From: Escherichia phage SECphi27 | Strand: one strand, 5' to 3' | DNA: 51,811 nt | Sequence record: LT961732 | In this document: positions 4,370 to 51,811 of the stretch, in pieces | Layout: every line of letters begins with the position of its first letter | Position numbering within the stretch: the first letter of the stretch is position 1 | Made by a program: the position numbers and the translations under genes | Notes under the pieces: model-generated | The model's input: the letters and a program-made list of their open reading frames with translations, nothing else | The model's database searches: none | What the model was told of the DNA's origin: nothing

Positions 4370-4765
4370 TCATGTGATATTGAATTTACGGCGCAGTGCT
4401 TCAAGATCTTGTCTATTAGCTTTTGCCTGGAACAATTCATCATCGCCCATCTCCCCTATTCTAGCCATATCCCTGATCCAGTCGTTGCGCATACCATCCA
4501 GGCTATACAATTCGAATCCGAAAGGCCGCTTTGACGATCCTTTGGACCAGTATTTACCGCAGACCCCATCTATATAACCAGCCGTCATCATTCTTGCGCA
4601 AAATTCCTTAGATGCAAGGCTGGCGAACATTCGCGGCGTAAGTCCGGCGGCCCGTGCGAGCCGCTCACATTCTCTATGCTGATAGATAAATTTGGCTATG
4701 TGCTGCCTGTTAAACCAGTCGTATGACTCACACCATTTATACAGATCAAGCAAAAACATAATCAT
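4370..4765 (-). CDS. hypothetical protein (cotranscribed with NTPase)
   Basis: 131 aa; ATGA start/stop overlap with upstream 526-aa gene. Confidence 0.55.
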   Translation of the reverse strand: MIMFLLDLYKWCESYDWFNRQHIAKFIYQHRECERLARAAGLTPRMFASLASKEFCARMMTAGYIDGVCGKYWSKGSSKRPFGFELYSLDGMRNDWIRDMARIGEMGDDELFQAKANRQDLEALRRKFNIT

Positions 4766-6342
4766 CCCAGCAGTATTGGATTGACAAAAATAACACCATT
4801 AATCACGCAAACATAATTTCTTTCTTCCAGCATTGGCAGCAAGTGCCCCTCTATCCTCTTCATTACGCCAGCCTGACCAACGAAAGGTTTTACCTTTCTC
4901 GCTGATTCGTACAGGGCGCGAATATTCAGGATCCCTTTGTTAGCCTTGCCGTGCCTCGTGATCAATTCAATCAATTTACCCATTTCAGCATCATCACCAG
5001 CATAACCAGAAGCATTGGCGGCGCTAATGTATGTTTTGCTCAATTCCTGAAACATGATCAACGCCTCTTGCATTGTTTCCACGTCGATCTCTTTCGACTT
5101 CTGCGGGTATCCGGCAGGATTAAACCAGTTACGGATAACATGCAGGACGGAAGCAAGCCTGATCACCTGTTTATCCATTTTACCCAGCGCACCGCGTAAC
5201 ATTGTATGAGAATACTTTCCGCCGTCTGCAAGATGCGGTTCCATATCCTGGCGAGCAATGTTGAGCACTCGCATAGCTGAACGGCTTATTTTCAGCGATA
5301 TATTTGATTCGCTCATGATGTTATGCACCAATTGATAATATTGGGCTTTCAATTCAGAATCCACCGCCTCATAGGTAGAATCACCATTTTCATCAATGAA
5401 TGAGCGACGGCCTAAGAATGATTCCTCGCGGACCAACAAAAAACGCTCACTAACACCGATGCCTCGCGATCCAGCGTCCATGATTCCGCTTATCGTTTCA
5501 TCCTGGGCTATAACGCTCATGCATCCAAGCGCGCGAAAACTCATATTATTGTCAGCATTAGCACGGGCAATTGATACGTGACCATTATCCCACGCCTTAA
5601 GCACTAACTCACTGTTAGTCTTCCTTTCGCTATTTGCATAGGTCAAGCCTAACAGACTGTTAATACTTGTTGCTTCATCAGATATTACGGCAAAGTTACC
5701 TTGCTTGTTGTTGATTTTCGCCAAGCCTTCTGGAGTTGTATCTGAAACAGGAAAAGTTATATCACACATTTTTTCCAGCTTTTCCTCCAGATCCTCTTTT
5801 TCCTGGTATAGAGATTCCATATCAGCGCCGGATCTTTCGCTTTTCATCTCCTTTGCAAGACCTGCCAGCTTTGCCTGTATTTTCTTTCTTTCCTTGCGGC
5901 GTTGCTCGTTGATCTTCTCAACTTCCGCAATCATCGGAGCAATAGCCATGCTGTTGATCGCAGATTTACCAGTTGACGGCGGCTGGCTTGTAACGACGTA
6001 AAGCGCAGTCGGCTGATCGGTTCCGTGATAGTCAACCGTAAAGCGTCCAAGCATAGCGGCAGAAATGCAGCCGATAAAGTGCATGTAAGCCGATGATTCA
6101 GGGAATTGAACGGATCGCGCAATGCTGCGTGATAACTTGCCGACAACATCAATATCATTACCAAGAGAAATAACGGGGTAGCGATCGTGACCGCTATTCA
6201 CATCCTTTACGTCGCCCCAAAAGCTGGACGACTGGCGATAGCCGTTAGCCTGAATTGATACGCGAACTGGTGAAAGGTTCTGGCTTTCAGCCATAGCGAT
6301 TATTTGCTGTGGAGTTAATTTGTTTGTTTCTAATGAAAACAT
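4762..6342 (-). CDS. P-loop NTPase of unknown function
   Basis: 526 aa; Walker A-like PPSTGKS and Walker B-like FAVISDE separated by a charged coiled-coil insert; RBS AAGGAGAAG. Confidence 0.65.
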   Translation of the reverse strand: MFSLETNKLTPQQIIAMAESQNLSPVRVSIQANGYRQSSSFWGDVKDVNSGHDRYPVISLGNDIDVVGKLSRSIARSVQFPESSAYMHFIGCISAAMLGRFTVDYHGTDQPTALYVVTSQPPSTGKSAINSMAIAPMIAEVEKINEQRRKERKKIQAKLAGLAKEMKSERSGADMESLYQEKEDLEEKLEKMCDITFPVSDTTPEGLAKINNKQGNFAVISDEATSINSLLGLTYANSERKTNSELVLKAWDNGHVSIARANADNNMSFRALGCMSVIAQDETISGIMDAGSRGIGVSERFLLVREESFLGRRSFIDENGDSTYEAVDSELKAQYYQLVHNIMSESNISLKISRSAMRVLNIARQDMEPHLADGGKYSHTMLRGALGKMDKQVIRLASVLHVIRNWFNPAGYPQKSKEIDVETMQEALIMFQELSKTYISAANASGYAGDDAEMGKLIELITRHGKANKGILNIRALYESARKVKPFVGQAGVMKRIEGHLLPMLEERNYVCVINGVIFVNPILLG

Positions 6343-11156: not shown

Positions 11157-11164
11157 ACGGTTAG

Positions 11165-11290
11165 CGCCAGGATTGTGATCGAAATAATCAAAAGTAATCA
11201 TTCGTAATCAAATCACGTCAAAATGATGATTGCCTTTGCAAATTTGATGAGAAAAGTAATCACGTTTAATCATTGGTTGCATGGGAGATA
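11165..11290. repeat. Iteron-like cluster of TAATCA repeats
   Basis: At least five (A/G)TAATCA copies within about 110 bp in a noncoding divergent region. Confidence 0.5.
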
Positions 11291-11708
11291 GTGAAACCTT
11301 CCCCTCTTGCCTCACTTTTCCGCCTGGCTGTCAGTGGTTGTTGTCTTTTGTTCACCCCTGTTACCGATTTCAGGCGGCGTGTTTCCGCGCGGTTTTCCGG
11401 TGTAGCGAAAACGGAAAAAACAAAGAAAATCCTCTATAATACATTGAAAATAAAGATTATTTATTTATATATATCTATAATGTTTTCTTTTTGTTCTCAC
11501 TGTTACAGTGCTTTTTGTTGGTTATGGTGTGGTTGTGTGTGGGCATATATGGATAGTTGCGCGCGCGGCGGATTGCATATGTATATATACTTTTTCCGGC
11601 GGATTGCGTTAACAGCGTGAACAGAAAAATAACAGCCGCGAAATCAATAACTTGCGCATGATTTTGTAGTTTTTCGATATTGGTAACGTTTTGAATACAA
11701 CAAAAACA

Positions 11709-11736
11709 TTGACACGCACCAAATAGCTTTTATAAT
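11709..11736 (+). promoter_or_regulatory. Near-consensus sigma70 promoter (TTGACA, 16 nt, TATAAT)
   Basis: ttgacacgcaccaaatagcttttataat; about 30 nt upstream of RBS GGAGG and ATG 11768. Confidence 0.65.
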
Positions 11737-11767: not shown

Positions 11768-12232
11768 ATGGAACAGAAGACCACTAAGGACTATTGCGAT
11801 TGGCTTCGCGAGCTTGGTCGCCGCCTGGCTAGTGGCGATATTGAAGAGTATAAAATGTCACTAATTGACCTGGCCGGAATGTTAAGCGGTGATGACTGCT
11901 ACAAGATCACGCGCAGTTCATCCTACAGCCGGACCATTATCAACCGCGTTCCAGAAGTAAGGGCCGCAGGTCGGGTAAGCATCAAGGTAGAGGAAACGGA
12001 AGATGATAAATTTTACGTTTTCCGCATGGTGCGCGAATCGAAAAGGAAAATCATCACACCCGAAGAATTGCCAGCAATCAAGGCAAGGGCGATCAAAAAG
12101 TTTGCCGATCGCTTACTGGCAGCAATCCCGAACATCGTGGACCTGGAAGGGGATAAACTGGCTGGGGCTTGCGAGGGCGTAAGCCGCTACCAGGATATGA
12201 TCCGCGAAATCATCAAAGAGGAAGAGCAATGA
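11768..12232 (+). CDS. hypothetical protein (first gene of plus-strand block)
   Basis: ORF track 11735-12232; start moved to ATG after GGAGG RBS, because 11735 lies inside the promoter. Confidence 0.55.
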   Translation: MEQKTTKDYCDWLRELGRRLASGDIEEYKMSLIDLAGMLSGDDCYKITRSSSYSRTIINRVPEVRAAGRVSIKVEETEDDKFYVFRMVRESKRKIITPEELPAIKARAIKKFADRLLAAIPNIVDLEGDKLAGACEGVSRYQDMIREIIKEEEQ

Positions 12233-36738: not shown

Positions 36739-39700
36739 ATGGCTAAATATATGATAAGCGGCAGTAAGGGCGGAAGCAAAAAGCCATACGTGCCAAAAGA
36801 GATGGAAGATAACCTGATCTCGATAAACAAGATTAAAGTTTTGCTGGCTGTATCTGATGGCGAGTGCGATCCAGATTTCACGTTGCGCGATCTTTATCTT
36901 GATGATGTTCCGGTTATTGCCAGCGATGGCACTGTTAACTACGAGGGAGTTACGGCTGAATATCGACCGGGTACGCAGACGCAAGATTACATCCAGGGTT
37001 TTACTGACACATCAAGTGAGGTGACAGTTGCAAGAGATATTACCGGAGACAATCCTTATGTTATTTCTGTTACAAATAAAAATCTATCTGCGGTAAGAAT
37101 AAAGATCCTGATGCCAGTAGGCATTAAAACAGAGGATAACGGCGATCTTGTTGGCGTAAGGGTTGAGTATGCCGTAGATATGGCTATTGATGGCGGTTCT
37201 TATAGCGAGGTTATGAGAGATGTAATTGACGGCAAGACAAGATCAGGATACGACCGCAGCAGAAGGATTGATCTTCCTAAGTTTGATGAGCGCGTTTTAA
37301 TCCGAGTAAAGCGACTGACTCCAGACAGCACATCTTCAAAGGTGACTGATAAAATCAAGCTGCAAAGTTACGCTGAGGTTGTTGATGCAAAATTCCGCTA
37401 TCCTCTGACTGGCCTTGTATTCGTAGAATTTGACAGCGAATTGTTTCCTACGCAAATCCCTAACATTTCTATAAAAAAGAAATGGAAGATTATTAATGTG
37501 CCAAGCAACTATGATCCAATATCAAGAGAATATCACGGGTCATGGGATGGGACTTTTAAAAAAGCGTGGTCAAATAATCCCGCTTGGGTTCTTTATGATC
37601 TGGTGACAAATCAGCGTTATGGACTTGATCAGCGAGAGTTAGGAATACAGATCGACAAGTGGAGCTTATACGAGGCGGGCGTTTACTGTGATCAGAAAGT
37701 TCCAGACGGTAAGGGCGGTACTGAGCCTCGCTACCTATGCGATGTGGTGATTCAGAATCAAGTTGAGGCTTATCAGCTAATCCGTGACATTTGCTCAATC
37801 TTTCGCGGAATGAGTTTTTGGAATGGTGAGAGCTTATCAATCGTGATTGATAAGCCACGCGATCCATCATACGTGTTTACTAATGAAAACGTCATCAACG
37901 GTGATTTTCAGTACACAACCGCAAGCGAAAAAAGCATGTACACGCAGTGTAACGTGACGTTTGACGACGAACAAAACATGTATCAGCAGGACGTAGAGGG
38001 GGTTTTTGATACTGAGGCGGCATTACGATTTGGATACAATCCAACAAGCATTACAGCGATCGGGTGTACACGCAGGAGCGAAGCGAATCGTCGCGGTCGG
38101 TGGGTTTTGAAAACAAACCTTAGAAGCACTACTGTAAACTTTGCTACCGGACTAGAGGGGATGATTCCATCAATAGGTGATGTGATTGCTATCGCTGATA
38201 ATTTTCAGAGTAGCAACCTAACGTTAAACCTATCGGGCCGAGTAATGGAAGTTTCAGGATTGCAGGTTTTCGTTCCGTTTAAGGTTGATGCTCGCCCTGG
38301 TGATTTTATTATCATCAACAAGCCGGACGGCAAGCCAGTTAAGCGCACGATCTCAAAGGTTAGCGCAGACGGAAAAACAATTGAGTTAAATATCGGATTT
38401 GGTTTTGATGTTAAGCCTGATACTGTTTTTGCGATTGACCGTACTGACCTTGCGTTGCAGCAATACGTTGTGACAACTATCAGCAAGGGTGATGACGAAA
38501 ACGAGTTTACCTATTCAATCACGGCTGTGGAGTACGATCCGAACAAATACGACGAGATTGATTATGGCGTAAACATTGATGACAGGCCGACTTCAATTGT
38601 TCAGCCTGACGTGATGGCAGCGCCTGAGAACGTTAAGATCTCATCTTATTCTCGCGTCGTGCAGGGTGTTAGCGTTGAGACTATGGTTGTTTCATGGGAT
38701 AAGGTTCCTTACGCATCGCTTTATGAAATGCAGTGGCGAAAAGGTGATGGTAACTGGCTGAATACGCCGCAGACCGCTAACAAAGAGATAGAGGTAGAAG
38801 GGATTTACTCTGGCAACTACCAAGTAAGGGTGAGATCCGTTTCTGCAAGCGGTAACGCTTCCCCGTGGTCAAAGATTGCAACCGCCACTCTGACAGGTAA
38901 AGTTGGCGAGCCAGGAGCGCCGATTAATCTTACTGCTTCTGATAATGAAGTTTTTGGCATTCGTGTCAAATGGGGTATGCCGGAAGGATCAGGCGATACG
39001 GCTTACATTGAGCTTCACCAATCGCCAGACGGAACGGTTGAAAACTCAAGTCTGCTTACGCTGATTCCATATCCTCAATATGAGTATTGGCATAGCACGT
39101 TACCAGCGGGGCAAGTTGTATGGTATAGAATCCGCAGCGTTGACAGAATAGGCAACGTTTCCAGTTGGACTGACTTTGTTCGCGGTATGGCGTCAGATGA
39201 TGTTGAATCTGTTTTGGGCGACATTCTGGACAAGATTTTTGATACAGAAGCTGGTCAAGAAATCAAAGAGAACGCCATAGACAGCGCCAATAAAATCAAA
39301 GACCAGGCACAATCAATCATACAGAACGCGTTGGCAAATGATGCAGATGTGAAGTGGACGAGAGTGCAAAACGGAAAGCGCAAGGCTGAATATGGTCATG
39401 CTCTTGAGCTTATCGCCAATGAAACAGAAGCGCGCGTAACTCAAATCGAAGAGTTAAGGGCATCAATTGATGGCGAGATAACATCAAGCATCAAGACAGT
39501 GCAGGAGGCAATTGCCACTGAATCAGAGACGCGAGCGACTCAAATTCAGCAGCTTGATTCTAAATTCACAAAAGAAATCGACGGCGTGCGCAAGGATACT
39601 TCTGCAAGCATTAGCGATGTAAGGCAGACAATCACTAACGAGTCAGAAGCGCGCGCTCAGGCCGTTCAGCAGCTTGACGCTAAGTTCACGAAAGAGATAA

Positions 39701-40317
39701 ACGACCTTGACGGAGTTATCAAAACAGAAGTCGAGGCTAACATCTCAGAAGTGAAACAGGCGATCGCCAATGAGACAGAGGCAAGGGTTCAGGCTGACCA
39801 GGCATTAACAGCACGATTTGGCGACGTTGAATCTGCATTGGTTGAAAAGTTGGATTCTTGGGCGAGCGTTGATTCAGTTGGCGCTAAATACGCTATGAAA
39901 CTTGGCCTTACTTACAAAGGCCAGCAATACAGCGCAGGAATGGTGATGCAGCTTTCGCAGGGTTCATCCGGCCTTATCTCGCAAATTTTGTTTGATGCTA
40001 ACAGGTTCGCCATTATGACTAGCTCTACTGGAGGGACTTTTACTTTGCCTTTCGTGGTTGAGAATAATCAGGTTTTCATTAATAGTCTTTTGGTGAAGAA
40101 CGGTTCAATCACTAATGCGATGATTGGTAATGTGATTCAGTCAAACAACTTTGTTCAAAACCAGCAAGGATGGAGGCTTGATAAAAACGGAATCTTTGAG
40201 AATTACGGATCAACGCCAGGAGAAGGAGCTACTAAATTCACCAATGAGGGATTGAAGGTAAAAGATGCAAACGGAGTATTGAGGGTTGAAGTCGGAAGGA
40301 TTACCGGAAGCTGGTAA
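36739..40317 (+). CDS. host specificity protein / central tail fibre (lambda gpJ-like)
   Basis: About 1192 aa; fibronectin-III-like segments; repeated ETEARxxQxxQL heptad-like units near C-terminus. Confidence 0.8.
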   Translation: MAKYMISGSKGGSKKPYVPKEMEDNLISINKIKVLLAVSDGECDPDFTLRDLYLDDVPVIASDGTVNYEGVTAEYRPGTQTQDYIQGFTDTSSEVTVARDITGDNPYVISVTNKNLSAVRIKILMPVGIKTEDNGDLVGVRVEYAVDMAIDGGSYSEVMRDVIDGKTRSGYDRSRRIDLPKFDERVLIRVKRLTPDSTSSKVTDKIKLQSYAEVVDAKFRYPLTGLVFVEFDSELFPTQIPNISIKKKWKIINVPSNYDPISREYHGSWDGTFKKAWSNNPAWVLYDLVTNQRYGLDQRELGIQIDKWSLYEAGVYCDQKVPDGKGGTEPRYLCDVVIQNQVEAYQLIRDICSIFRGMSFWNGESLSIVIDKPRDPSYVFTNENVINGDFQYTTASEKSMYTQCNVTFDDEQNMYQQDVEGVFDTEAALRFGYNPTSITAIGCTRRSEANRRGRWVLKTNLRSTTVNFATGLEGMIPSIGDVIAIADNFQSSNLTLNLSGRVMEVSGLQVFVPFKVDARPGDFIIINKPDGKPVKRTISKVSADGKTIELNIGFGFDVKPDTVFAIDRTDLALQQYVVTTISKGDDENEFTYSITAVEYDPNKYDEIDYGVNIDDRPTSIVQPDVMAAPENVKISSYSRVVQGVSVETMVVSWDKVPYASLYEMQWRKGDGNWLNTPQTANKEIEVEGIYSGNYQVRVRSVSASGNASPWSKIATATLTGKVGEPGAPINLTASDNEVFGIRVKWGMPEGSGDTAYIELHQSPDGTVENSSLLTLIPYPQYEYWHSTLPAGQVVWYRIRSVDRIGNVSSWTDFVRGMASDDVESVLGDILDKIFDTEAGQEIKENAIDSANKIKDQAQSIIQNALANDADVKWTRVQNGKRKAEYGHALELIANETEARVTQIEELRASIDGEITSSIKTVQEAIATESETRATQIQQLDSKFTKEIDGVRKDTSASISDVRQTITNESEARAQAVQQLDAKFTKEINDLDGVIKTEVEANISEVKQAIANETEARVQADQALTARFGDVESALVEKLDSWASVDSVGAKYAMKLGLTYKGQQYSAGMVMQLSQGSSGLISQILFDANRFAIMTSSTGGTFTLPFVVENNQVFINSLLVKNGSITNAMIGNVIQSNNFVQNQQGWRLDKNGIFENYGSTPGEGATKFTNEGLKVKDANGVLRVEVGRITGSW

Positions 40318-40346: not shown

Positions 40347-40970
40347 ATCATAGTGTGATGCATTTATAACCAAAACAGATGAAGCGGTGTAAATACCAAC
40401 AGGTCCAGGAGTTTGTGCAACCTGCCTAGAAAAAGAGTAGATCCCGTTACCATACGCGGCAGCTTGAGACTCAAAAATCATGAATCCACCTAAAGCCGGA
40501 TTAGGAACAGAGTTTAATGCTGTCAGTGATGGCATTATGGCGCAAGGATAGCCCATGTTAACATCAAATGCGATCCCGCTTACGCCTACTTGCTTTGCAT
40601 CTAGCGGCCTCATTTTTCCATGATAAACCATTTCACCATGAGCATTATAAAACGCTATGCCGTGACTACCTGGGGGAGTCACCATATTACTAAAAGCATA
40701 AACAATAACCTCACCCTGATTATCAGATCTATCAAGTCTTATTGCGTGCCTTCCACCATTGTTAAATTGCGTGAATGATATGTATGATTTAGCGGTCAAT
40801 CTAACAAAGAAAAAACATACCCTATCAACAGGAATTGACGAAGTAAAAACGGTTCCGGTATTAGCAGATATTACGGCCCGATCAATTAGATTAACTGGAG
40901 TGAAATCTGGACTTAACCATAACGATCCGTCTGATTTTTTTATACTCATCCCGTACATTATCACCCCCAA
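40344..40970 (-). CDS. hypothetical protein (downstream half of homopolymer-split gene)
   Basis: 208-aa ORF beginning at TTG within a C5A5 run; contains GIAFYNAHGEMV repeat related to upstream ORF. Confidence 0.5.
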   Translation of the reverse strand: MGVIMYGMSIKKSDGSLWLSPDFTPVNLIDRAVISANTGTVFTSSIPVDRVCFFFVRLTAKSYISFTQFNNGGRHAIRLDRSDNQGEVIVYAFSNMVTPPGSHGIAFYNAHGEMVYHGKMRPLDAKQVGVSGIAFDVNMGYPCAIMPSLTALNSVPNPALGGFMIFESQAAAYGNGIYSFSRQVAQTPGPVGIYTASSVLVINASHYD

Positions 40971-41239
40971 AAAGTATATATATATCTTGAATCAGATCCA
41001 GAAAGCCCACTCCATGTAACGGTGTCGCCACTTACCCCTAAGTTTGGTGCGCCAGGGTCGCCACCACGCCAGGAATTCATGCCAACATATATTGCTTTCA
41101 ATGATTTACCTGGCGGCCTGTTTTGGTAAGTCTTGCTACCTGATGGCTGAGTGAATTTATCAAGGAAGAAAACAGGCGTTAAAAGTCCTGTAACTTCCCT
41201 TCCTCGATCGTCATATATTGCATAACCATATTGCGCCAT
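40961..41239 (-). CDS. hypothetical protein (upstream half of homopolymer-split gene)
   Basis: 92 aa; YGYAIYDDRGREV YD-like repeat; stop lies in homopolymer run overlapping the next ORF. Confidence 0.5.
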   Translation of the reverse strand: MAQYGYAIYDDRGREVTGLLTPVFFLDKFTQPSGSKTYQNRPPGKSLKAIYVGMNSWRGGDPGAPNLGVSGDTVTWSGLSGSDSRYIYTFWG

Positions 41240-41508
41240 TAATTACACCTCAAATCAATAAATTTACTTTCATTTTGCCAACGGTTGATAAATTTAACTT
41301 CTTTATTGTCAACGCTCAACCTGTATTGCTTTTGGCTGAATCTGTTTTCGCGGACTGCATTAATTTTGACTTCATGGAATCCGTTAACAGGGAATGTTTT
41401 AACGTTAAATTTTGCCGTGCAATCGATCTCCTTGAAGTTTCCAGTAGGCGACGCTGCGCACCCTGTCAGAGCGGCTACAGTGGCGATAACTGCGATTAAC
41501 TTTTTCAT
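41239..41508 (-). CDS. cor: small lipoprotein, Cor-like superinfection-exclusion candidate
   Basis: Signal peptide plus lipobox LTGC; about 89 aa; location beside tail fibre genes as in T1/phi80-type phages (inference). Confidence 0.5.
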   Translation of the reverse strand: MKKLIAVIATVAALTGCAASPTGNFKEIDCTAKFNVKTFPVNGFHEVKINAVRENRFSQKQYRLSVDNKEVKFINRWQNESKFIDLRCN

Positions 41509-41564
41509 CTTTATATCTCCTTAGTTGTTGTTGTTTTCAACTATACACGATCTTGGGCATCGCG

Positions 41565-41585
41565 TTTAGCAAAAAGTGCTATTTG
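41565..41585 (-). promoter_or_regulatory. Conserved intergenic motif (variant ...TTGCTAAACG), forward class
   Basis: Minus-strand read: tagcactttttgctaaacg, tatagt, RBS TAAGGAG, ATG 41508. Confidence 0.55.
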
Positions 41586-41589
41586 TTAT

Positions 41590-41850
41590 TTTTTGTTTTC
41601 CGGTGTTATCGAATTTAAGGCGGCGTAAATTTAGAGCAAATTTTATACAACATAAGATCAATAAACAATCAATAAAATAGATATATACATATAAAATCAA
41701 TAGTTTATTTATTTATGTATGTATATTTGTTTTTTCTTGTTATCTGCGTTTCTTGTGGTTTTGGTTGTTTGTGGTGATTTTTCTTTCTGAGTATCTGTAT
41801 GTGCCATCATTCATGTGTATGTATATAATCCGGCGTATCTGAGAGAACAG
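41590..41850. other. AT-rich noncoding element, paralogous to 11380-11640
   Basis: Shared blocks ttttccggtgt, ggcggcgt, tttatttatttat, T/G-rich gttt..gtggtt and gtatgtatata with the region at 11380-11640. Confidence 0.55.
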
Positions 41851-41951
41851 GGGAACAAGAAAAATAACACATATTAATCATTAACTTATGAGTCAAATCT
41901 GTTTTCTTGCCATCTGAGAACGTTTAGAAAACAGAAAAAACAAAACAGCTA

Positions 41952-41979
41952 TTGACTAAATCAACCAAATGGCTACAAT
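41952..41979 (+). promoter_or_regulatory. sigma70 promoter (TTGACT, 16 nt, TACAAT)
   Basis: ttgactaaatcaaccaaatggctacaat about 30 nt upstream of AAGGAG and ATG 42010. Confidence 0.6.
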
Positions 41980-42009
41980 GCACGCATAAAGCAACAAGGA
42001 GCATTAAAG

Positions 42010-43077
42010 ATGAGTGATTTTAACGCCTACACTAGCGAAGAAATGAGCAACGAGCTTTATCATGATCCTAACGCGTGGACGGCTGAATATGTCAGCGGTT
42101 CCAGCCTGGCGGAGATTTACAGCACTTGCCCGGCGTACTGGAAGTACAAGCCGCGCCAGGAAACTAAAGCACTTGTTTTCGGTACGCAGTCGCATACCAA
42201 CTTTGAAAGCAAGGAGCTATTCGAAAAAACATATCGCCGCGCACCGTCGCAGGATGATTTTAAAGATCTGATCACTAGCCAAACGGCGTTAGCATCAAAG
42301 CTGAAATCTTTTGGCCTGAAAGGTACGACGGGTAAACAATACCCTGAATTACTGGAAATGCTGTACAAGTGCGGCGAGGATCTCAATGTGTGGTGGCTTA
42401 TCGAAATGATGGCAGAATGCCAGGCCGCAGCGGACGGAGTGCAGTTAATAGACGCTAAAGATTATGATGCCTGTGTAGCGATGCGGCGCGTACTTGAGGC
42501 CATACCGGAGCATAACGCTTGCATGAACAGCCCAACCGCGCAGCGTGAAATGTCAATATTTGGGATCATCAACGGCGTAAAAGTAAAAGTGCGTCTTGAT
42601 CACGTTGACGTAAACAAGGATGTAAAGGCAACAATCATTAACGGTTACGACGAAAAAGGCAGGCCGATTTATGAAGAAGTCACCTATCCAGAAGCGGTGA
42701 TTATCACTGACTACAAAACAACGGTTAGCGCAAATCCGGTTGACTTCCAGCGCCTGGCTTACAATCACGGCTATTATCTTAAAATGGCTTTGCAACATGA
42801 CTTATTCAAAAAGGCGTATCCAGACGAGGAAAGGCCAGTAATTGTAAGATTGCTTGCGCAGGAGAAGAAAGAGCCTTACTTGCCGCTCGCATTCCGCATG
42901 AACATTGAGCAATTGAAGATTGGGCGCATCCAGTACATGAGCGTGATCAACAAGTTCAACGTTTGCCAGCAGTTAGATGAATGGCCTTCGTATGCAAACG
43001 GACAACCAGAAATTGATCTTGATACTCCTGATTGGGTTCGTGCTCAATTCAGGCAGTATCTGTGGCAAACTAAATAA
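42010..43077 (+). CDS. PD-(D/E)XK family exonuclease (RecB/RecE-like)
   Basis: 355 aa; RecB-family nuclease motif IITDYKTT; part of exonuclease/annealase/SSB module. Confidence 0.7.
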   Translation: MSDFNAYTSEEMSNELYHDPNAWTAEYVSGSSLAEIYSTCPAYWKYKPRQETKALVFGTQSHTNFESKELFEKTYRRAPSQDDFKDLITSQTALASKLKSFGLKGTTGKQYPELLEMLYKCGEDLNVWWLIEMMAECQAAADGVQLIDAKDYDACVAMRRVLEAIPEHNACMNSPTAQREMSIFGIINGVKVKVRLDHVDVNKDVKATIINGYDEKGRPIYEEVTYPEAVIITDYKTTVSANPVDFQRLAYNHGYYLKMALQHDLFKKAYPDEERPVIVRLLAQEKKEPYLPLAFRMNIEQLKIGRIQYMSVINKFNVCQQLDEWPSYANGQPEIDLDTPDWVRAQFRQYLWQTK

Positions 43078-43398: not shown

Positions 43399-44055
<657 letters not shown>

Positions 44056-44619: not shown

Positions 44620-45327
44620 CTACAACCGCTTTAGCTCGTCAATTTCTTTTCTCATCTCATCGTTTTCCGCTTTCAGTTTCTTAACGTGGTGAATCAGTGG
44701 AACAGTGAGGCGGTCATACATAACGCCTTCCGCCACCATGCCATTACTTGAAGCAATGGCAGGATCTTCTCCTTCTTGCAGCGGTCGCCAGTGAACGTAC
44801 TCCGGCGCAACCTCTCCAACTTCCTCTGCAATCAGTCCGTACCATCCCCAATCTTTACGGTCGCTTTCACAGGTTGACCGATACCACACAGGACGCATTT
44901 CAAGCATCAGATCCGCATATTCATCAATAACCGATTCTACGCTGCGCTTATAACGAGAAGAGGAAGTGGAGCGTAAAACTTGCGACACTCCAGCATTTGG
45001 ATCAAGCCATAAGTTTGCTGATTGAGCGGTTGTGTTGAGTCTAAACAAATAAAATGCATCGTTACCAGTCAGGGGGTAAAAATTGCCACCATACCTTCCG
45101 CTATCCAACTCGGACGATAGATCATTTTGTTTTAGATACAACTTCAACTTATTGTCAACATCAGTAGTTGATGCTTTTCCTGCAACATCCTGTTTTAGTG
45201 TCGAAACATCACTTTTCAGCTTCGTTATATCACCAGGAATAGTAGCAACATCCTGTTTTAGTGTTGAAACGTCATTTTTAAGATTCGTTATATCACCAGG
45301 AATATTAGTAACTGTAGCCATTTTCAT
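44620..45327 (-). CDS. short tail fibre/spike protein with C-terminal intramolecular chaperone-like domain
   Basis: 235 aa; N-terminal tandem repeat IPGDITxLKxDVSTLKQDVA x2; C-terminal segment resembling peptidase S74 chaperone domain. Confidence 0.55.
   Translation of the reverse strand: MKMATVTNIPGDITNLKNDVSTLKQDVATIPGDITKLKSDVSTLKQDVAGKASTTDVDNKLKLYLKQNDLSSELDSGRYGGNFYPLTGNDAFYLFRLNTTAQSANLWLDPNAGVSQVLRSTSSSRYKRSVESVIDEYADLMLEMRPVWYRSTCESDRKDWGWYGLIAEEVGEVAPEYVHWRPLQEGEDPAIASSNGMVAEGVMYDRLTVPLIHHVKKLKAENDEMRKEIDELKRL
45182..45307. repeat. Tandem direct repeat, 2 x 63 bp, inside short fibre gene
   Basis: Two about 90 percent identical 63-bp units encoding the duplicated N-terminal peptide. 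Confidence 0.8.
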
Positions 45328-47713: not shown

Positions 47714-48643
47714 TTATAGCAGTGATTCGGGCTTGTAGAGTTTTCTTTCTACGCCCTGTTTAAAATTATCGTTAACAGGCATCATTATGTCAAGACCTCT
47801 TTCCTCTGCCGCGATTATCACATCACGATCATCTTTCCGGCAGACTACGCGCATCCTTCTTTCTCCTTTATATCTATGCGCAACCATTTCAAGATTTGAA
47901 GGGGTAAAGCAAGCCCACACCTCTTGACCAGTTGATAAATGAACATGCTGGGAATCAACCCAATCAAGGCACAAATAGATCGTCTTATCCGTGCTACCTG
48001 TTTTAACAACAGATCCGCGCGTGTAGTCGCGAGCTAAAAACCAATCCTTTCCATCCTCATCAATGAAAAGCACGTTACACATTTCATCATCCAGCCCGTC
48101 ATCATGCACCAGGTGACAAGGTAGCGCGTGAATGTATCGACCATCCTTGACGCCGCAATCATAATGACAATCTTCCGGCGGATATATCCCCTCATAAACG
48201 CTTAAAGGTGTGCGATCGAATTTTAATGTTTTTGCCATCACTTTTTCGCAACATTCATGACTTGCCTGTTTCCCGAACGAGTAACCAGAAGAACGCGAAG
48301 CGCGTTTGTTTGCTCTGATCCTGTAATCTTGTGGCACTTTTCCGAGGAAGCGGCCCAAAATGTTGATGGCCTCGCTGTAAGGTTCGCCAGTTAATTTCAT
48401 TAACCAACCGATCCCCGTGTCGTTGCCGCATACGTTGCAGATCGCGCCGCCGTCGCCCTCTTCATTTAGCTTATCAGTCCATCTAAAACGATCCTTACCG
48501 CCGCAGTGTGGGCAAGGTTGATGCTTTTTGTTGAAAACATCGCTATGCAGTCCGCAAATGCTTTGTAGTGCTTCACGCCATAACCCCTTCATATATGGCA
48601 AAACATCTTCTTTCTGATAGGTCATAAAGTTTTCAGTATTCAT
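47714..48643 (-). CDS. DNA primase (zinc-finger plus TOPRIM-like)
   Basis: CxxC...CxxC zinc-binding segment (CPHCGGKDRF...CNVCG) and acidic TOPRIM-like motifs; start moved to ATG 48643 after GAGG RBS. Confidence 0.65.
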   Translation of the reverse strand: MNTENFMTYQKEDVLPYMKGLWREALQSICGLHSDVFNKKHQPCPHCGGKDRFRWTDKLNEEGDGGAICNVCGNDTGIGWLMKLTGEPYSEAINILGRFLGKVPQDYRIRANKRASRSSGYSFGKQASHECCEKVMAKTLKFDRTPLSVYEGIYPPEDCHYDCGVKDGRYIHALPCHLVHDDGLDDEMCNVLFIDEDGKDWFLARDYTRGSVVKTGSTDKTIYLCLDWVDSQHVHLSTGQEVWACFTPSNLEMVAHRYKGERRMRVVCRKDDRDVIIAAEERGLDIMMPVNDNFKQGVERKLYKPESLL

Positions 48644-48697
48644 GGCAAACCTCAATAAAAAGCCCAGCAAATATTATCATTTCGCTGGGCCTTATCA

Positions 48698-49174
48698 TTA
48701 GCTATTCGTGCTGTTATCACCTTTGTAGAATCGTCCGCCTGGTTCGTAGTCTGAATTTTTGACTACGCGCAACATCTCGTATTTGTCGCAACGGGTAGTA
48801 AGAGGCTTACCGTTAGAATCAAACCGAAGATCTGGACGACAAAATGATGCGCGGTATCCTTTGCATCCATTATATTTGTAGTCGTTATGCACCTTTTGTG
48901 CTCCAGCGGCTGAAATCATACCACGCTTTCGCCACTGGTTAACGACTTGCTGAGATACGCGCAGACGTCGAGCCATAGCAGGAACGCCGCCGTAATACTC
49001 GATCAGAATGTCAAGGCGAGATTTCAGGCTTGCTTTTACCTCATCTCGCAGGATAAGAAATCCGGTTCGGTGTTTTCGTGGTTTTTTGTCTTTACCTCGT
49101 CGCGTTCCGTTGTTACCGTTAATAGTGCGCTTGTCGATCTCACCCGTAGATACTGCAATTCGTGCATCTTTCAT
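48698..49174 (-). CDS. HTH DNA-binding protein (putative regulator)
   Basis: 158 aa; helix-turn-helix-like AMARRLRVSQQVVNQWRKRG; basic N-terminus; divergent from helicase gene. Confidence 0.55.
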   Translation of the reverse strand: MKDARIAVSTGEIDKRTINGNNGTRRGKDKKPRKHRTGFLILRDEVKASLKSRLDILIEYYGGVPAMARRLRVSQQVVNQWRKRGMISAAGAQKVHNDYKYNGCKGYRASFCRPDLRFDSNGKPLTTRCDKYEMLRVVKNSDYEPGGRFYKGDNSTNS

Positions 49175-49186
49175 CTAGTCACCTCA

Positions 49187-49205
49187 TAGCATTTTTTGTT
49201 AAAAC
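49187..49205 (+). promoter_or_regulatory. Conserved intergenic motif (variant TAGCATTTTTTGTTAAAAC), forward class
   Basis: In 88-bp divergent region; tattatatact downstream; precedes helicase ATG 49262. Confidence 0.55.
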
Positions 49206-49261
49206 AGTTTATTGTAATGAGTCTATTATATACTCCAAATGGCATTTTTTAAAGGTTTAAG

Positions 49262-51259
49262 ATGATTCCAAATATCGAAAAACAAATATCAGCATTAGGC
49301 GAGGCAGTAATAAAAAGCATCCAAGAGCGATTCACGGTTGGCAATATAGTGCCTTATCCTTATCAGTGCGTTGCGTATGCAGAGATCGCAAAGCGCATGA
49401 AAAACTATGAGCATCCTTTCTTTGTTAAGGCTTCTGTGTCGGCTGGCAAAACATTGATGTTTGCTATGGTTGCGGCGCAATGCCGCAAAATGGGATTGAA
49501 AATGATGGTCCTTGCTCGCCAGGCTGAAATTGTTGATCAGGATTCGGAAGAGATCAGCAATCTTGGCGTGCCAAACTCAATCTATTGCGCCGGACTGAAA
49601 ACAAAAAGCGCATACTTTCCGATCGTGGTCGGTTCTGAGGGCACTGTAGTAAACGGATTGTTTAAGTCGTTAGGTGATTATGTTCCGCACGTTATCGGTA
49701 TTGATGAATGTCACCAGGTGGATTGGGAGGATCTCGCGGACGCGATAGAAAATAATGAATCTTACCAGCAGATGACCACTAAGAAGGATTTGCCAGTACT
49801 GATTGGAGAAGAACAGCAATTTGATTCCAATGGCGATCCAATGTTCGGAACAGGGCGCACACAGTACACCGTAATAATCATGGAAATGATGCGCAGGTGT
49901 CGCGAGGCATACGGGCACGAATTGCGAATATTCGGTATGACTGGATCTGAATTTCGCGGCGTGGTTCCAATACTGGTTGAAGATAAGAACAAAAAGGGAT
50001 TCTGGCGTGAGCAGGTGACTAACATAGATACAAACTACTTAATCAAATTCGGTTCGGTAGTGCCAACAAACTTCGGCGACGTAGGCGACCTGGGTTATGA
50101 CCTTTCAGAGTTCGAAGCCAGTAGCGAGGATGGCGTTTCAGACTTTGACGCTAAAACATTGCGCAAGATGGAAGAAAAGATCCATCAAGACGCAACAATG
50201 ACACAGAAAATCATGGCTAAAGTCCATGAGATATGCAAAGACAGGAACGGAGTTTTAGTTACATGCGCAGGGGAAAGGCACTGCAAGGAGGCCGCAGCCG
50301 CACTGCCGCCAGGCGTTGAATACAGGATCATAACTGGCAAGACTGGAGATAATCAGCGTAAAGAGTGGCTGAGGGAGGCATACGAGGGAAAAGTAAAATA
50401 CATCTTCCAGGTACAGGCGCTTACCACTGGCGTTAACGTTCCGTTTTGGGATACTTCGGTAATACTGAGAAAGATAGGATCTCTAACATTGCTCATCCAG
50501 CTTTTGGGGCGCGGTATGCGACTGCTTAAGCAATGGCACATTGAGCAGGGATTCAAGAAAAAAGATCATCTTGTATTGGATTTTGCAGGTACTATGGATG
50601 AGTTAGGTGATTTGTATTTCGATCCAATCCTTGAGCAAGCGCAATTCCAAAAGAGATTTACAAACGGGAAAGAGCCTAAGACTTGTCCGATATGTGGAAC
50701 GCTAAACAGTTTTTACGCTCGCCGATGTATGCACGTAGACGATAACGGGAAGCGATGCGAGCATTTTTGGACTTACAGAATTTGCGAGGATCAGGTAGAT
50801 CCGAGAACGAAAAAGATAATCAAGCGCGGTTGCGGAACAAAAAACGACGTAGTGGCGAGAGTATGCCGTTGTTGCGATATTTCTCTTGTCGATCCTAACG
50901 AGAAGTTAAGCGGTAAGCACTACACCAAAAACGATTGGTGCAACGTTAAATCTTTCCGCGTTGATATGACGAAAAACCAGAAAGGAATTATTTTTTGCTA
51001 TGAGCTTGAGGCCAACGGCGACACGTTCAAGGCATACGAAAGATTTTTCCCTGAGTCAGAAAGCAACATTTGCCGGACGATATGGAGAAAAATAGCATTG
51101 CAGCACATAACGGATCGCAAGATTGCTGGTATGGTGGCGAGCTATAGAAATGCGCGTAAAATAATGTCATACGCTCATCACATCATGCCTCCTGTACGCG
51201 TAACGCATCGCAAAAACGGCAAAGGTGAGGATAACATTGCAAAACGGGAGTTTGTTTAA
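49262..51259 (+). CDS. SF2 DNA helicase
   Basis: 665 aa; Walker A SAGKT; DExH box GIDECHQ; Cys-rich zinc-ribbon-like C-terminal segments. Confidence 0.8.
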   Translation: MIPNIEKQISALGEAVIKSIQERFTVGNIVPYPYQCVAYAEIAKRMKNYEHPFFVKASVSAGKTLMFAMVAAQCRKMGLKMMVLARQAEIVDQDSEEISNLGVPNSIYCAGLKTKSAYFPIVVGSEGTVVNGLFKSLGDYVPHVIGIDECHQVDWEDLADAIENNESYQQMTTKKDLPVLIGEEQQFDSNGDPMFGTGRTQYTVIIMEMMRRCREAYGHELRIFGMTGSEFRGVVPILVEDKNKKGFWREQVTNIDTNYLIKFGSVVPTNFGDVGDLGYDLSEFEASSEDGVSDFDAKTLRKMEEKIHQDATMTQKIMAKVHEICKDRNGVLVTCAGERHCKEAAAALPPGVEYRIITGKTGDNQRKEWLREAYEGKVKYIFQVQALTTGVNVPFWDTSVILRKIGSLTLLIQLLGRGMRLLKQWHIEQGFKKKDHLVLDFAGTMDELGDLYFDPILEQAQFQKRFTNGKEPKTCPICGTLNSFYARRCMHVDDNGKRCEHFWTYRICEDQVDPRTKKIIKRGCGTKNDVVARVCRCCDISLVDPNEKLSGKHYTKNDWCNVKSFRVDMTKNQKGIIFCYELEANGDTFKAYERFFPESESNICRTIWRKIALQHITDRKIAGMVASYRNARKIMSYAHHIMPPVRVTHRKNGKGEDNIAKREFV

Positions 51260-51756: not shown

Positions 51757-51811
51757 AAATGGCTAAAGATATTTTAGATAAAGACACCCATGACGCATTC
51801 GTTAGCTTTGA
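51757..51811. repeat. Second copy of the terminal direct repeat (same as 1-55)
   Basis: Exact identity with window start. Confidence 0.9.

What the first reader, a model, noticed from the sequence alone, without database searches (positions are those of the whole stretch)
41590..41850. Second noncoding element paralogous to 11380-11640, again upstream of a consensus promoter
The 500-bp gap between the cor-like gene and the exonuclease gene shares several sequence blocks with the first hub (ttttccggtgt, ggcggcgt, tttatttatttat, T/G-rich gtt..gtggtt..gtg, gtatgtatata) and also contains ATCAATA repeats. Like the first hub it sits at a divergent junction and ends in a strong sigma70 promoter. Two related structured noncoding elements at the two major divergence points suggest duplicated regulatory or origin modules, or a pair of related ncRNAs.
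Basis: seen in the sequence. Interest (0 to 1): 0.6.

Follow-up and report, generated by a model that had tools for sequence, protein, structure and literature searches.

The report
Twin iteron and AT-rich phage modules
This T1-like coliphage carries two old, related ~400-bp noncoding modules, each an array of short protein-binding repeats around the easiest-to-melt DNA in the genome, which look like the family's still-unidentified replication origins (or early-gene control regions) and not like RNA genes.

Summary
Window 41573-41981 and 11332-11728 are true paralogues: local alignment z is about 21, and a profile built only from other genomes finds exactly these two places (E 1e-61 and 1e-48). 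The window is a Tempevirinae (Drexlerviridae) phage, 99.6% identical to phage tunus. The pair is present across the family, including T1, TLS and Ec_L1, so the duplication is old.

Each module holds triplets of 7-bp sites at 10-11-bp steps, direct on the left and inverted on the right. The sites flank the two least stable duplex stretches of the whole genome. A twice-repeated CGGCGTA box and IHF-like cores are also present, and a promoter closes the module.

Site positions are conserved, but site sequence switches by lineage: TGTTC, TGTAAC, TGTAAT, ACGGAGGAT. In Ec_L1 the lineage-specific 8-mer occurs 7 times in one hub, 7 times in the other, and once elsewhere.

No RNA structure, Rfam match, covariation or credible ORF was found.

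Best reading: paired iteron plus unwinding-element modules, probably replication origins like SPP1 oriL/oriR or P4 ori/crr. The main rival is an early-promoter control region. The binding protein is unidentified and function is untested.

The parts
41573..41981 (.). Hub2 module as a whole (the paralogous unit, including its right-hand promoter).
   Evidence: nhmmer profile built from other genomes, E 1.3e-61. Smith-Waterman alignment to hub1, z about 21. Orthologues are 60-96% identical across Tempevirinae.
11332..11728 (.). Hub1 module, the paralogous partner. It has the same block order: a-sites 11339-11365, GGCGGCGT 11373-11380, least-stable TA-rich core 11416-11492, b-sites 11481-11508, T/G tract, TA block 11577-11591, CCGGCGG 11596, inverted c-sites 11608-11634, IHF core 11642-11654, and promoter 11709-11736.
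   Evidence: nhmmer E 1.1e-48. Alignments. This is the only 12/12 sigma70 consensus in the genome.
41540..41583 (-). Leftward promoter-like unit for the cor-like cluster. It holds a copy of the family-wide 21-nt motif (AATAGCACTTTTTGCTAAA, 41565-41583 on the minus strand) and a TATAGT -10-like hexamer (41540-41545 on the minus strand).
   Evidence: Repeat families D3-D6. The motif is described for TLS, T1 and Rtp in PMC11447400.
41583..41610 (+). a-sites: three direct heptamers, TTGTTAT, TGTTTTC and TGTTATC, at 10-bp steps.
   Evidence: TGTTHHC hits. The positions are conserved in all orthologues, with the sequence switching by clade.
41619..41630 (+). GGCGGCGTAAAT box, first copy of a conserved GC island.
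   Evidence: Conserved column block in the alignments. The second copy is at 41830. The box is also present in Ec_L1 hub2.
41638..41737 (.). AT/TA-rich core and candidate DNA-unwinding element. It contains ATCAATA three times (41657, 41668, 41696) and the IHF-core match AATCAATAGTTTA (41695-41707).
   Evidence: This is the most AT-rich 100 nt of the genome, at 85%. It is also the least stable 60-bp and 100-bp duplex window of the genome, about 4.8 SD from the mean. The IHF core occurs 5 times in the genome, 2 of them in the hubs.
41727..41752 (+). b-sites: a second direct triplet, TTGTTTT, TGTTATC and GCGTTTC, at 10-11-bp steps.
   Evidence: Internal repeat of the a-site block at 144-bp spacing (D1/D2). 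Conserved in the alignments.
41749..41800 (+). T/G-rich tract, conserved in composition but not in sequence, and variable in length.
   Evidence: Alignments. No conserved RNA structure.
41816..41837 (+). Second TA block, TGTATGTATATAAT, followed by CCGGCGTA (the second copy of the GC box).
   Evidence: Repeats D4 and D7. A weak promoter-like match GTGCCA-17-TATAAT overlaps it.
41843..41869 (-). c-sites: inverted heptamers GAGAACA, GGGAACA and AATAACA (TGTT-type sites on the minus strand).
   Evidence: The homologous block in TLS-like phages reads GTGAACAatGGAACAC.
41876..41888 (+). AATCATTAACTTA, one mismatch from the IHF core. Relatives and hub1 carry the exact core AATCAATAACTT(A/G).
41898..41948 (.). 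d/e-sites. These are the 10-bp inverted repeat TCTGTTTTCT (41898-41907) / AGAAAACAGA (41926-41935), followed by GAGAACG, GAAAACA, AAAAACA and AAAACAG running up to the -35 hexamer.
   Evidence: The arms of I4 pair the left end (41578-41600) with the right end (41927-41949).
41952..41979 (+). Sigma70-type promoter TTGACT-16-TACAAT for the exonuclease VIII / Erf / SSB operon.
   Evidence: ATTGACTAAA...GGCTAnAATG is conserved across the family. It corresponds to predicted promoter P51 of TLS.

Best explanation
Hub2 (41573-41981) and hub1 (11332-11728) are two copies of a cis-acting nucleoprotein-assembly module. The module is an iteron array flanking a DNA-unwinding element.

A phage-encoded, lineage-specific DNA-binding protein is inferred to occupy the helically phased 7-bp sites: the a and b triplets in one orientation, and the c and e groups in the other. 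Together with IHF-type bending, and with negative supercoiling from the promoters that fire away from the module, this would open the TA-rich core, which is the least stable DNA in the genome. The phage's own replication proteins would then be loaded there: the DUF3987 5'-3' helicase (4762-6342, minus strand) and the P4-alpha-type primase (47714-48670, minus strand).

On this reading the two hubs are the replication origins, or an origin plus a second required or modulating cis-site, of T1-like phages. The logic is that of SPP1 oriL/oriR or P4 ori/crr.

Shown here: paralogy, family-wide conservation of the pair, site arrays with clade-switching sequence, the unwinding-prone core, and absence of RNA or coding signals.

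Inferred only: protein binding, melting, helicase loading, and origin function itself.
For: 1. Real and ancient duplication.
- Alignment z is about 21, and the profile from other genomes finds exactly two places.
- The pair is found in all Tempevirinae loci with complete flanks, in T1 and in Ec_L1.
- Within-genome hub1-hub2 identity is about 50%. That is no higher than between genomes, so both copies are kept by selection and not by gene conversion.

2. Site arrays.
- TGTTHHC occurs 7 times per hub, against 0.6 in dinucleotide shuffles (0 of 2000 shuffles reach 7).
- The two hubs are the densest 400-nt windows in the genome, and GTT-GTT spacing peaks at 9-11 and 19-21 bp.

3. Conserved positions with lineage-specific sequence.
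- Tempevirinae have TGTTC 3-8 times per hub2 and TGTAAC 0 times.
- The T1 clade has TGTAAC 5-6 times and TGTTC at most 1-2 times.
- L029 has TGTAAT 9 times.
- Distant relatives have unrelated iterons around the same TA-rich minimum: GCGGTAGAT, GGTAAGAT and ACGGAGGAT.

4. In Ec_L1, CGGAGGAT occurs 7 times in hub1, 7 times in the gap upstream of exonuclease VIII, and once in the remaining ~50.8 kb of the genome.

5. The two least stable 40-, 60- and 100-bp duplex windows of the genome are the hub cores, which are also the most AT-rich windows.

6. IHF-core matches: 2 of the genome's 5 are in the hubs.

7. Replication proteins and the state of knowledge.
- The phage encodes its own replicative helicase and a primase homologous to the P4 alpha primase domain (E 3e-16), but no recognised initiator.
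- No origin is known for TLS or T1 (PMC11447400).

8. Known precedents have two iteron plus AT-rich cis-elements per small genome: SPP1 oriL/oriR (PMC6316719) and P4 ori/crr.
Against: - No experiment bears on function. Every origin-specific step is inference.
- The module always sits directly upstream of a promoter, and the e-sites abut the -35 hexamer. That fits a transcriptional control region equally well.
- There are no DnaA boxes, and GATC is not enriched.
- The motif TGTTHHC was defined after looking at the hubs, so its p-values are optimistic.
- In T1, hub2 has 7 TGTAAC sites but hub1 has only 2, with TGTTAAT(C) repeats instead. 'One protein, both hubs' is therefore not clean everywhere.
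- No overall sequence homology to P4 ori or crr (z <= 2.5).
- T1-like phages could start replication by recombination, without a classical origin.
Confidence: 0.45

Rival explanations
1. The module is an early-promoter control region, with operators or an enhancer. The repeats would be binding sites for a phage regulator, for example the Cro/YdaS-like HTH protein at 48698-49174 (minus strand). Together with phased A/T tracts and IHF, this regulator would activate or later shut off the two strongest host-RNAP promoters and the leftward promoter. The duplication would then reflect co-regulation of two early operons.
For: - The module is always attached to a downstream promoter. That includes hub1, where a pac-type insert separates it from the leftward promoter.
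- Sites run up to the -35 hexamer.
- TLS has only three predicted intergenic sigma70 promoters, and two of them are the hub promoters P01 and P51.
- The hub1 promoter is the only 12/12 consensus in the genome.
- The regulator has a conserved scaffold and a variable recognition helix. The residue Q that is invariant in all TGT-core lineages is replaced in Ec_L1, which has a wholly different iteron.
Against: - About 370 bp with 12 or more sites on both sides of the genome's most meltable DNA is far more than known operators need.
- About 20 other phage promoters (the 21-nt type) work without any such module.
- In Ec_L1 the promoter type differs while the module is kept.
- Covariation between regulator and site is not strict. 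T1 (SNQTVQG) and L030 (SRQAVEE) differ in the helix but share TGTAAC.
- Cro-like HTH dimers usually read palindromes, not head-to-tail heptamers at 10-bp steps (general knowledge).
Confidence: 0.3
2. The modules are bound by one protein that pairs them, by looping or handcuffing, or that blocks forks. One hub would be the true origin. The other would act as a P4 crr-like helper, or as an SPP1 oriR-like fork barrier that triggers the switch to recombination-dependent concatemer synthesis.
For: - The same lineage-specific iteron occurs in both hubs and almost nowhere else.
- Hub2 stays glued to the exonuclease/Erf/SSB operon even after rearrangement.
- Precedents exist in SPP1 and P4.
Against: This is purely by analogy. 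No data on looping or fork arrest exist. It is a sub-case of the best explanation rather than a true alternative.
Confidence: 0.12
3. The repeats are binding sites for the small terminase subunit, which would make hub2 a second pac site.
For: Hub1 is adjacent to the packaging start. The T1 record begins inside hub1. TLS position 1, the restriction-mapped pac, lies about 110 bp to the left of the hub1 module.
Against: - The pac-proximal sequence is a hub1-specific ~180-bp insert (11160-11337) that hub2 lacks.
- TLS digests show a single submolar pac fragment.
- The module is the part shared with hub2, which is not near any mapped end.
Confidence: 0.05
4. The two elements are a pair of related noncoding RNAs, or they encode small proteins.
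For: - -10-like boxes lie inside the modules: CTATAAT in hub1 and in many relatives, and TATAAT at 41824.
- Some GenBank records annotate 3-4 tiny ORFs here.
Against: - No Rfam match at gathering threshold, and all E values are >= 4.7 in the permissive search.
- MFE z-scores are unremarkable and not shared between the hubs.
- RNAalifold consensus energy is 0.00 across orthologues on both strands.
- No conserved terminator. The only terminator-like hairpin is in hub1.
- The internal TATAAT box is replaced by TATATAC in about 40% of copies, including the window's hub2.
- ORFs are at most 44 aa and of low complexity, and the region is broken by indels that are not multiples of 3.
Confidence: 0.04
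5. The resemblance is chance similarity between AT-rich, low-complexity spacers.
For: Both gaps are AT-rich (31% and 39% GC, against 45% for the genome).
Against: - z is about 21 against dinucleotide shuffles.
- An independent profile gives E 1e-48 and 1e-61 and finds only these two places.
- An exact shared 11-mer is unique to the two hubs.
- The block order is conserved across genera.
Confidence: 0.01

Closest known systems
Bacillus phage SPP1 oriL / oriR
   Same: - SPP1 is a virulent, pac-type siphovirus of ~44 kb with two separated cis-elements of similar organisation.
- Each element has direct repeats plus an AT-rich unwinding element, and both are bound by one phage protein.
- One element (oriR) lies in a long intergenic region.
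- An exonuclease / annealase / SSB set is linked to the replication switch (PMC6316719).
   Different: - There is no sequence or protein homology. The gp38 initiator, gp39 loader and DnaB-type gp40 helicase are absent here.
- The T1-like phage has a DUF3987 helicase and a P4-type primase, and no identified origin-binding protein.
- Function is demonstrated for SPP1 and not here.
Satellite phage P4 ori and crr (type-1 iterons TGTTCACC bound by the alpha primase-helicase)
   Same: - Two cis-elements per genome carry the same short iteron in both orientations at about 10-bp steps, next to A/T-rich DNA (record annotation).
- The iteron core TGTTCAC is the commonest site in TLS-like hubs. It occurs 30 times in 18 kb of hubs and 7 times in 155 kb of flanks.
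- The exact 8-mer is present once, in the window's hub1 at 11349.
- The window's primase is homologous to the primase domain of alpha (E 3e-16).
   Different: - No overall sequence similarity between the hubs and ori or crr (z <= 2.5).
- Alpha's D5_N/DUF5906 helicase and its Pox_D5 C-terminal domain (the origin-binding part, from memory) have no counterpart in the window.
- The window's hub2 has no TGTTCAC at all.
- Other lineages use unrelated iterons, so the shared heptamer may be coincidence.
Iteron-type origins in general (lambda ori, SaPI ori, theta plasmids)
   Same: Multiple replicon-specific short repeats flank an AT-rich melting region, host-bending-protein sites are present, and specificity co-evolves with the replicon (general knowledge; features tested).
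   Different: The hubs are not inside or next to an initiator gene. There are no DnaA boxes, there are two full copies, and the reader protein is unknown.
Predicted promoters P01 and P51, and the 21-nt direct repeats, of phage TLS (PMC11447400)
   Same: - The right-hand promoters of hub1 and hub2 correspond to TLS P01 (523-549) and P51 (29110-29137).
- The left edge of each hub is one copy of the 21-nt repeat aaATAGCACnnnTTGnTAAAA.
   Different: That paper does not describe the ~370-bp paralogous modules between these signals. It states that no origin-like repeats were found anywhere in the genome.

Membership tests
Iteron-type replication origin | Several copies of a short, replicon-specific repeat clustered in one locus. 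| tested here: met
   - 7 TGTTHHC sites per hub, against 0.6 in shuffles.
- Clade-specific variants at conserved positions.
- In Ec_L1, CGGAGGAT occurs 7 + 7 times in the hubs and once elsewhere.
Iteron-type replication origin | An adjacent AT-rich DNA-unwinding element. | tested here: met
   The hub cores are the two least stable and most AT-rich windows of the genome. The same holds in distant relatives.
Iteron-type replication origin | Specific binding of the repeats by a replicon-encoded initiator. | not testable with these tools
   Only candidates are available. The helicase winged helix looks too conserved. The Cro/YdaS-like HTH protein has a variable recognition helix, but covariation with the sites is not strict.
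Iteron-type replication origin | Replication starts there, or the element supports phage-dependent replication in cis. | not testable with these tools
   This needs marker-frequency analysis, 2D gels or plasmid amplification assays.
Iteron-type replication origin | Host factor sites (DnaA boxes, IHF/Fis) as in many enterobacterial origins. | tested here: inconclusive
   - The IHF core WATCAANNNNTTR occurs once in each hub (5 in the whole genome).
- No DnaA box TTWTNCACA.
- GATC is not enriched.
P4 ori/crr system | Type-1 iteron TGTTCACC in both elements. | tested here: inconclusive
   The core TGTTCAC is enriched in TLS-like hubs. There is one exact 8-mer in the window's hub1 and none in hub2. 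Other lineages use different sites.
P4 ori/crr system | An alpha-type protein with primase, helicase and C-terminal origin-binding domains. | tested here: not met
   Only the primase domain has a homologue (E 3e-16). There is no D5_N, DUF5906 or Pox_D5 counterpart.
P4 ori/crr system | Sequence homology of the cis-elements. | tested here: not met
   Smith-Waterman against P4 ori and crr on both strands gives z <= 2.5. nhmmer finds no hit in P4.
Structured noncoding RNA gene | Match to a known RNA family. | tested here: not met
   Rfam gathering threshold gives 0 hits. The permissive search gives only E >= 4.7.
Structured noncoding RNA gene | Thermodynamically unusual and evolutionarily conserved secondary structure. 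| tested here: not met
   z-scores run from -2.9 to +1.8 and are not shared between the hubs. The alifold consensus energy is 0.00 in 11 of 12 blocks.
Structured noncoding RNA gene | Own promoter and terminator defining a discrete transcript. | tested here: inconclusive
   The internal TATAAT-like boxes are not conserved. There is no terminator in hub2. No TSS data for Drexlerviridae were found.
pac site / terminase recognition region | Coincides with the mapped first packaging cut. | tested here: not met
   The T1 and TLS record starts map to the hub1-specific insert to the left of the module, which hub2 lacks. TLS shows a single pac fragment.

The most novel reading that the evidence does not exclude
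T1-like phages use a bipartite, iteron-defined replication control system. One fast-evolving phage protein, possibly the Cro/YdaS-like HTH protein encoded between the primase and the SF2 helicase, reads both hubs, which lie 21-30 kb apart. It pairs them, or uses one hub as the origin and the other as a fork barrier or switch next to the RecE/Erf/SSB operon. Wholesale iteron replacement between lineages would act as a replication-specificity (incompatibility) barrier that shapes mosaicism in Drexlerviridae.
Probability: 0.15. Interest if true: 0.7.

Novelty: new member of a known kind. Interest (0 to 1): 0.5.

Why it matters
T1 is one of the original T phages, yet the papers I could read name no replication origin for it or its relatives. 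The 2024 TLS re-annotation states explicitly that no origin-like repeats were found.

These two modules give concrete, family-wide candidates that can be tested directly, with defined iterons, a defined melting core, and natural specificity variants that could be swapped between lineages.

They also matter for three practical reasons:
- Annotation: several GenBank records place spurious small ORFs across them.
- Engineering of Drexlerviridae for therapy or decontamination.
- Understanding why hub1 is a mosaic hot spot next to the packaging start.

Tried and rejected
1. ncRNA. Rfam at both thresholds, sliding MFE z-scores and RNAalifold with column shuffles gave no signal.

2. Small ORFs. All are at most 44 aa and of low complexity, with non-triplet indels among orthologues.

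3. Helicase C-terminal domain as the iteron reader.
- Its putative recognition helix is nearly invariant across lineages with unrelated iterons, so it is rejected as the specificity determinant.

4. Homology of the hubs to P4 ori/crr. Only the heptamer core is shared; alignment z is at most 2.5.

5. Host-factor readings.
- DnaA: no boxes.
- ArcA-type TGTTA repeats, recalled from memory. Rejected because the sites switch among phages of the same host.
- Chi-like sequence in the T/G tract: no match to GCTGGTGG on reading the sequence.

6. Concerted evolution or gene conversion between the hubs: not seen.

7. A third copy near the primase/helicase divergent gap (49175-49261). That gap holds only a 21-nt motif and a promoter.

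8. Occurrence outside phages: no match in 5,426 complete E. coli genomes or in PLSDB plasmids.

9. Literature. Nothing was found on TSS mapping or origin mapping in Drexlerviridae. The Rtp paper could not be retrieved by DOI or by a recalled PMC id, and I did not try to retrieve the T1 genome paper.

10. The first short-fragment protein search gave only 7 fragment hits and was of little use.
Full report
IDENTITY OF THE WINDOW

The window is a circularly permuted assembly of a T1-like phage. Bases 1-55 repeat at 51757-51811, so the unit genome is 51,756 bp. The hub2 region is 99.6% identical to Escherichia phage tunus (Drexlerviridae, Tempevirinae), and 63 GenBank phage records cover at least 80% of it.

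The gap 41509-42009 lies between a minus-strand cluster and a plus-strand operon. The cluster holds a Cor-like gene (41239-41508) and an outer-membrane-protein-like gene (40961-41239). The operon runs exonuclease VIII (42010-43077), Erf (43402-44055), then a 150-aa ORF at the position of the annotated SSB gene in Ec_L1.

CHECK OF THE OBSERVATION

The 11-mer TTTTCCGGTGT occurs only twice in the window, once in each hub.

- A local alignment pairs 11338-11708 with 41583-41942. It scores 88, against 23.3 +/- 3.1 for dinucleotide shuffles, so z is about 21.
- A profile built only from hub1 and hub2 of other genomes finds exactly two full-length matches in the window: 41573-41981 (E 1e-61) and 11332-11728 (E 1e-48).

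The paralogy is real.

The shared block at the far left (AGCAAAAAGTGCTAT) is a copy of a 21-nt motif with about 20 copies in the genome. That motif is already described for TLS, T1 and Rtp. It marks the edge of the module rather than being specific to it.

Hub1 carries an extra ~180 bp (11160-11337) that hub2 lacks.

ANATOMY

From left to right, both modules have the following parts:

- A leftward 21-nt-motif promoter.
- Three direct heptamers at 10-bp steps (hub2: TTGTTAT, TGTTTTC, TGTTATC).
- A GGCGGCGT(AAAT) box.
- An AT/TA-rich core.
- A second direct triplet.
- A T/G-rich tract of variable length.
- A second TA block followed by CCGGCG.
- Three inverted heptamers (GAGAACA, GGGAACA, AATAACA).
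- An AATCA(A/T)TAACTT block.
- A direct site and further inverted sites, which form a 10-bp inverted repeat in hub2.
- The promoter.

Supporting counts:

- TGTTHHC occurs 7 times in each hub, against 0.6 in shuffles (0 of 2000 reach 7).
- The hubs are the two densest 400-nt windows in the genome, and GTT-GTT distances peak at 9-11 and 19-21 bp. The motif was chosen after inspection, so these figures are optimistic.
- The cores 41668-41728 and 11432-11492 are the two least stable duplex windows of the entire genome, about 4.7 SD from the mean. They are also its most AT-rich windows.
- Two of the genome's five IHF-core matches are in the hubs.
- There are no DnaA boxes and no GATC enrichment.
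- The hub1 promoter is the only 12/12 sigma70 consensus in the genome. The hub2 promoter is 10/12 but conserved across the family.

COMPARATIVE EVIDENCE

I collected 43 loci upstream of exonuclease homologues, later 57, and 45 loci around the DUF3987 helicase.

- Hub2 orthologues are 60-96% identical within Tempevirinae.
- Hub1 is far more variable and mosaic. One metagenomic relative has hub2 at 96% identity but hub1 at 59%.
- Within-genome hub1-hub2 identity (about 50%) does not exceed between-genome values. The duplication therefore predates the subfamilies and is not maintained by gene conversion.

The key result is that site positions are conserved while site sequence switches by lineage:

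- Tempevirinae use TGTTC-type sites: 3-8 per hub2, and TGTAAC 0.
- The T1 clade uses TGTAAC: 5-6 per hub2, and TGTTC at most 1-2. In T1, TGTAACA/TGTTACA occurs 6 times in the hubs and nowhere else in the genome.
- One lineage uses TGTAAT, 9 per hub2.
- More distant relatives keep the TA-rich minimum but surround it with unrelated 8-11-bp repeats: GCGGTAGAT, GGTAAGAT and ACGGAGGAT.

Enterobacter phage Ec_L1 is the cleanest case. The 8-mer CGGAGGAT occurs 15 times in the whole genome. Seven copies are in hub1, seven are in the 574-bp gap upstream of exonuclease VIII, and one is elsewhere. This is the signature of sites read by a co-evolving, phage-encoded protein that recognises both hubs.

T1 is less tidy. 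Its hub2 has 7 TGTAAC sites, while its hub1 has 2 plus five TGTTAAT(C) repeats.

In Ec_L1 the exonuclease operon is inverted. Hub2 there follows the primase terminator between co-directional genes, and both hubs are followed by 21-nt-motif promoters. A divergent junction and a consensus sigma70 promoter are therefore not obligatory parts of the module.

WHAT IT IS NOT

Not an RNA gene:
- No Rfam match.
- No unusual folding energy shared by the hubs.
- RNAalifold finds no consensus structure in 12 orthologues on either strand.
- No conserved terminator.

Not coding:
- ORFs are at most 44 aa, and orthologues carry non-triplet indels.
- The small 'hypothetical proteins' that some records place here are probably artefacts.

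Not the pac site:
- The T1 record starts inside hub1.
- TLS position 1, a restriction-mapped pac, lies about 110 bp to the left of the hub1 module, in the hub1-specific insert.

Not found outside these phages:
- No match in complete E. coli genomes or in plasmids.

MECHANISM

Repeated, helically phased, lineage-specific sites on both flanks of the most meltable DNA in the genome, plus IHF-type cores, form the classical layout of an iteron origin.

The phage brings its own replicative helicase and a primase. The helicase is a DUF3987 protein, a family shown elsewhere to include 5'-3' helicases (PMC11724360). The primase is homologous to the primase domain of P4 alpha (E 3e-16). The phage has no recognised initiator, and the TLS re-annotation reports that no origin could be found.

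Two precedents have two such elements per genome:
- SPP1 oriL/oriR: direct repeats plus an AT-rich unwinding element, both bound by gp38.
- P4 ori/crr: TGTTCACC iterons in both elements.

I therefore favour paired origin-type modules, at confidence 0.45. That the modules are cis-acting protein-binding arrays of some kind I hold much more firmly, at roughly 0.85.

The main rival is an early-promoter control region (confidence 0.3), because the module is always glued to a promoter and its last sites abut the -35 hexamer. The two readings are not exclusive.

THE P4 LEAD

The commonest Tempevirinae site, TGTTCAC, equals the core of the P4 iteron, and the window's hub1 has one exact TGTTCACC. Against this:

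- The hubs show no overall similarity to P4 ori or crr.
- Alpha's helicase and C-terminal domains have no counterpart in the window.
- Other lineages use unrelated iterons.

So this is a likeness in logic, not membership of the P4 family.

WHO READS THE SITES

This is unresolved.

- The Cro/YdaS-like HTH protein between the primase and the SF2 helicase has a conserved scaffold and a variable recognition helix. A Q that is invariant in all TGT-core lineages is replaced in Ec_L1. However, T1 and an Rtp-like lineage differ in the helix yet share TGTAAC. This is a lead, not a finding.

NOVELTY AND SCORE

The promoters (P01 and P51 of TLS) and the 21-nt repeat are in the literature. I found no description of the paralogous modules between them, their iterons or their melting cores. 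I could not retrieve the Rtp paper and did not try to retrieve the T1 genome paper, so I cannot exclude a mention there.

If these are origins, they are a new member of a known kind. Interest is moderate (0.5). They offer a concrete, testable answer to where T1-like phages start replication, with natural specificity variants, but no function has been demonstrated.

Noticed in passing
window 986-1006, 12494, 12957, 13951, 15393, 18188, 22407, 47620, 49182, 51671 (+); 4234, 6396, 7070, 9104, 9831, 11135, 41564 (-), and others: A 21-nt motif, AATAGCACTTTTTGTTAAAAC, occurs about 20 times in intergenic spots, mostly pointing in the direction of the genes. A -10-like hexamer (CATAAT or TATAGT) follows about 21 nt after TTGTTA, often with a GC hairpin in between. 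That spacing is too long for an ordinary sigma70 -35/-10 pair. The motif is already described for TLS, T1 and Rtp, and its function is listed there as an open question (PMC11447400).
   Followed up: partly
window 11160-11337: A hub1-specific insert of about 180 bp, with TAATCA-type repeats, is absent from hub2. Position 1 of the TLS record (the restriction-mapped pac) falls in the corresponding hub1-specific segment, and the T1 record also starts inside hub1. This insert is therefore probably the packaging start (pac) region. Its sequence differs strongly between lineages.
   Followed up: partly
window 1-55 and 51757-51811: An exact 55-nt repeat at the two ends of the window. This is an assembly overlap of a circularly permuted genome, whose unit length is 51,756 bp.
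   Followed up: yes
window 11332-11728 compared with L086 (IMGVR_UViG_3300045988_025133): Hub1 is a mosaic hot spot. A relative whose exonuclease is 99% identical and whose hub2 is 96% identical has a hub1 that is only 59% identical. The first gene to the right of hub1 (DUF7174, 11768-12232) was found in only 2 viral contigs.
   Followed up: partly
window 4762-6342 (-): The DUF3987 helicase ends in a confidently predicted winged-helix domain (residues ~452-526). Its H3 helix is highly conserved across Drexlerviridae. The domain's role (DNA binding, or contact with a partner protein) is unknown.
   Followed up: yes
window 48698-49174 (-): A Cro/YdaS-like HTH protein has a strongly basic, conserved N-terminal arm (NGNNGTRRGKDKKPRK) and a variable recognition helix. 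It is encoded between the primase and the SF2 helicase, and has its own promoter in the 87-bp gap 49175-49261, opposite a 21-nt-motif promoter.
   Followed up: partly
window 45182-45307: Two tandem 63-nt copies, 90% identical, lie inside the minus-strand ORF 44620-45327 (235 aa).
   Followed up: no
window 39412-39787: Four copies of a 25-nt unit (ATCGCCAATGAAACAGAAGCGCGCG-like) lie 99-132 nt apart inside the 1209-aa tail fibre/J-like gene. This points to a repeated protein segment.
   Followed up: no
L110 33649-34222 (Enterobacter phage Ec_L1, record 50248-50821): In Ec_L1 the exonuclease/Erf/SSB operon is inverted relative to the window, and its hub follows the primase gene's terminator. The module has travelled with the operon and keeps a CCGGCGTA box and a TA-rich core, despite a completely different iteron.
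   Followed up: yes
L002 807-1137 (OR525699.1) and other records: Several GenBank records annotate three or four 29-44-aa 'hypothetical proteins' across hub2. Given the lack of conservation of any reading frame, these are probably over-calls.
   Followed up: partly
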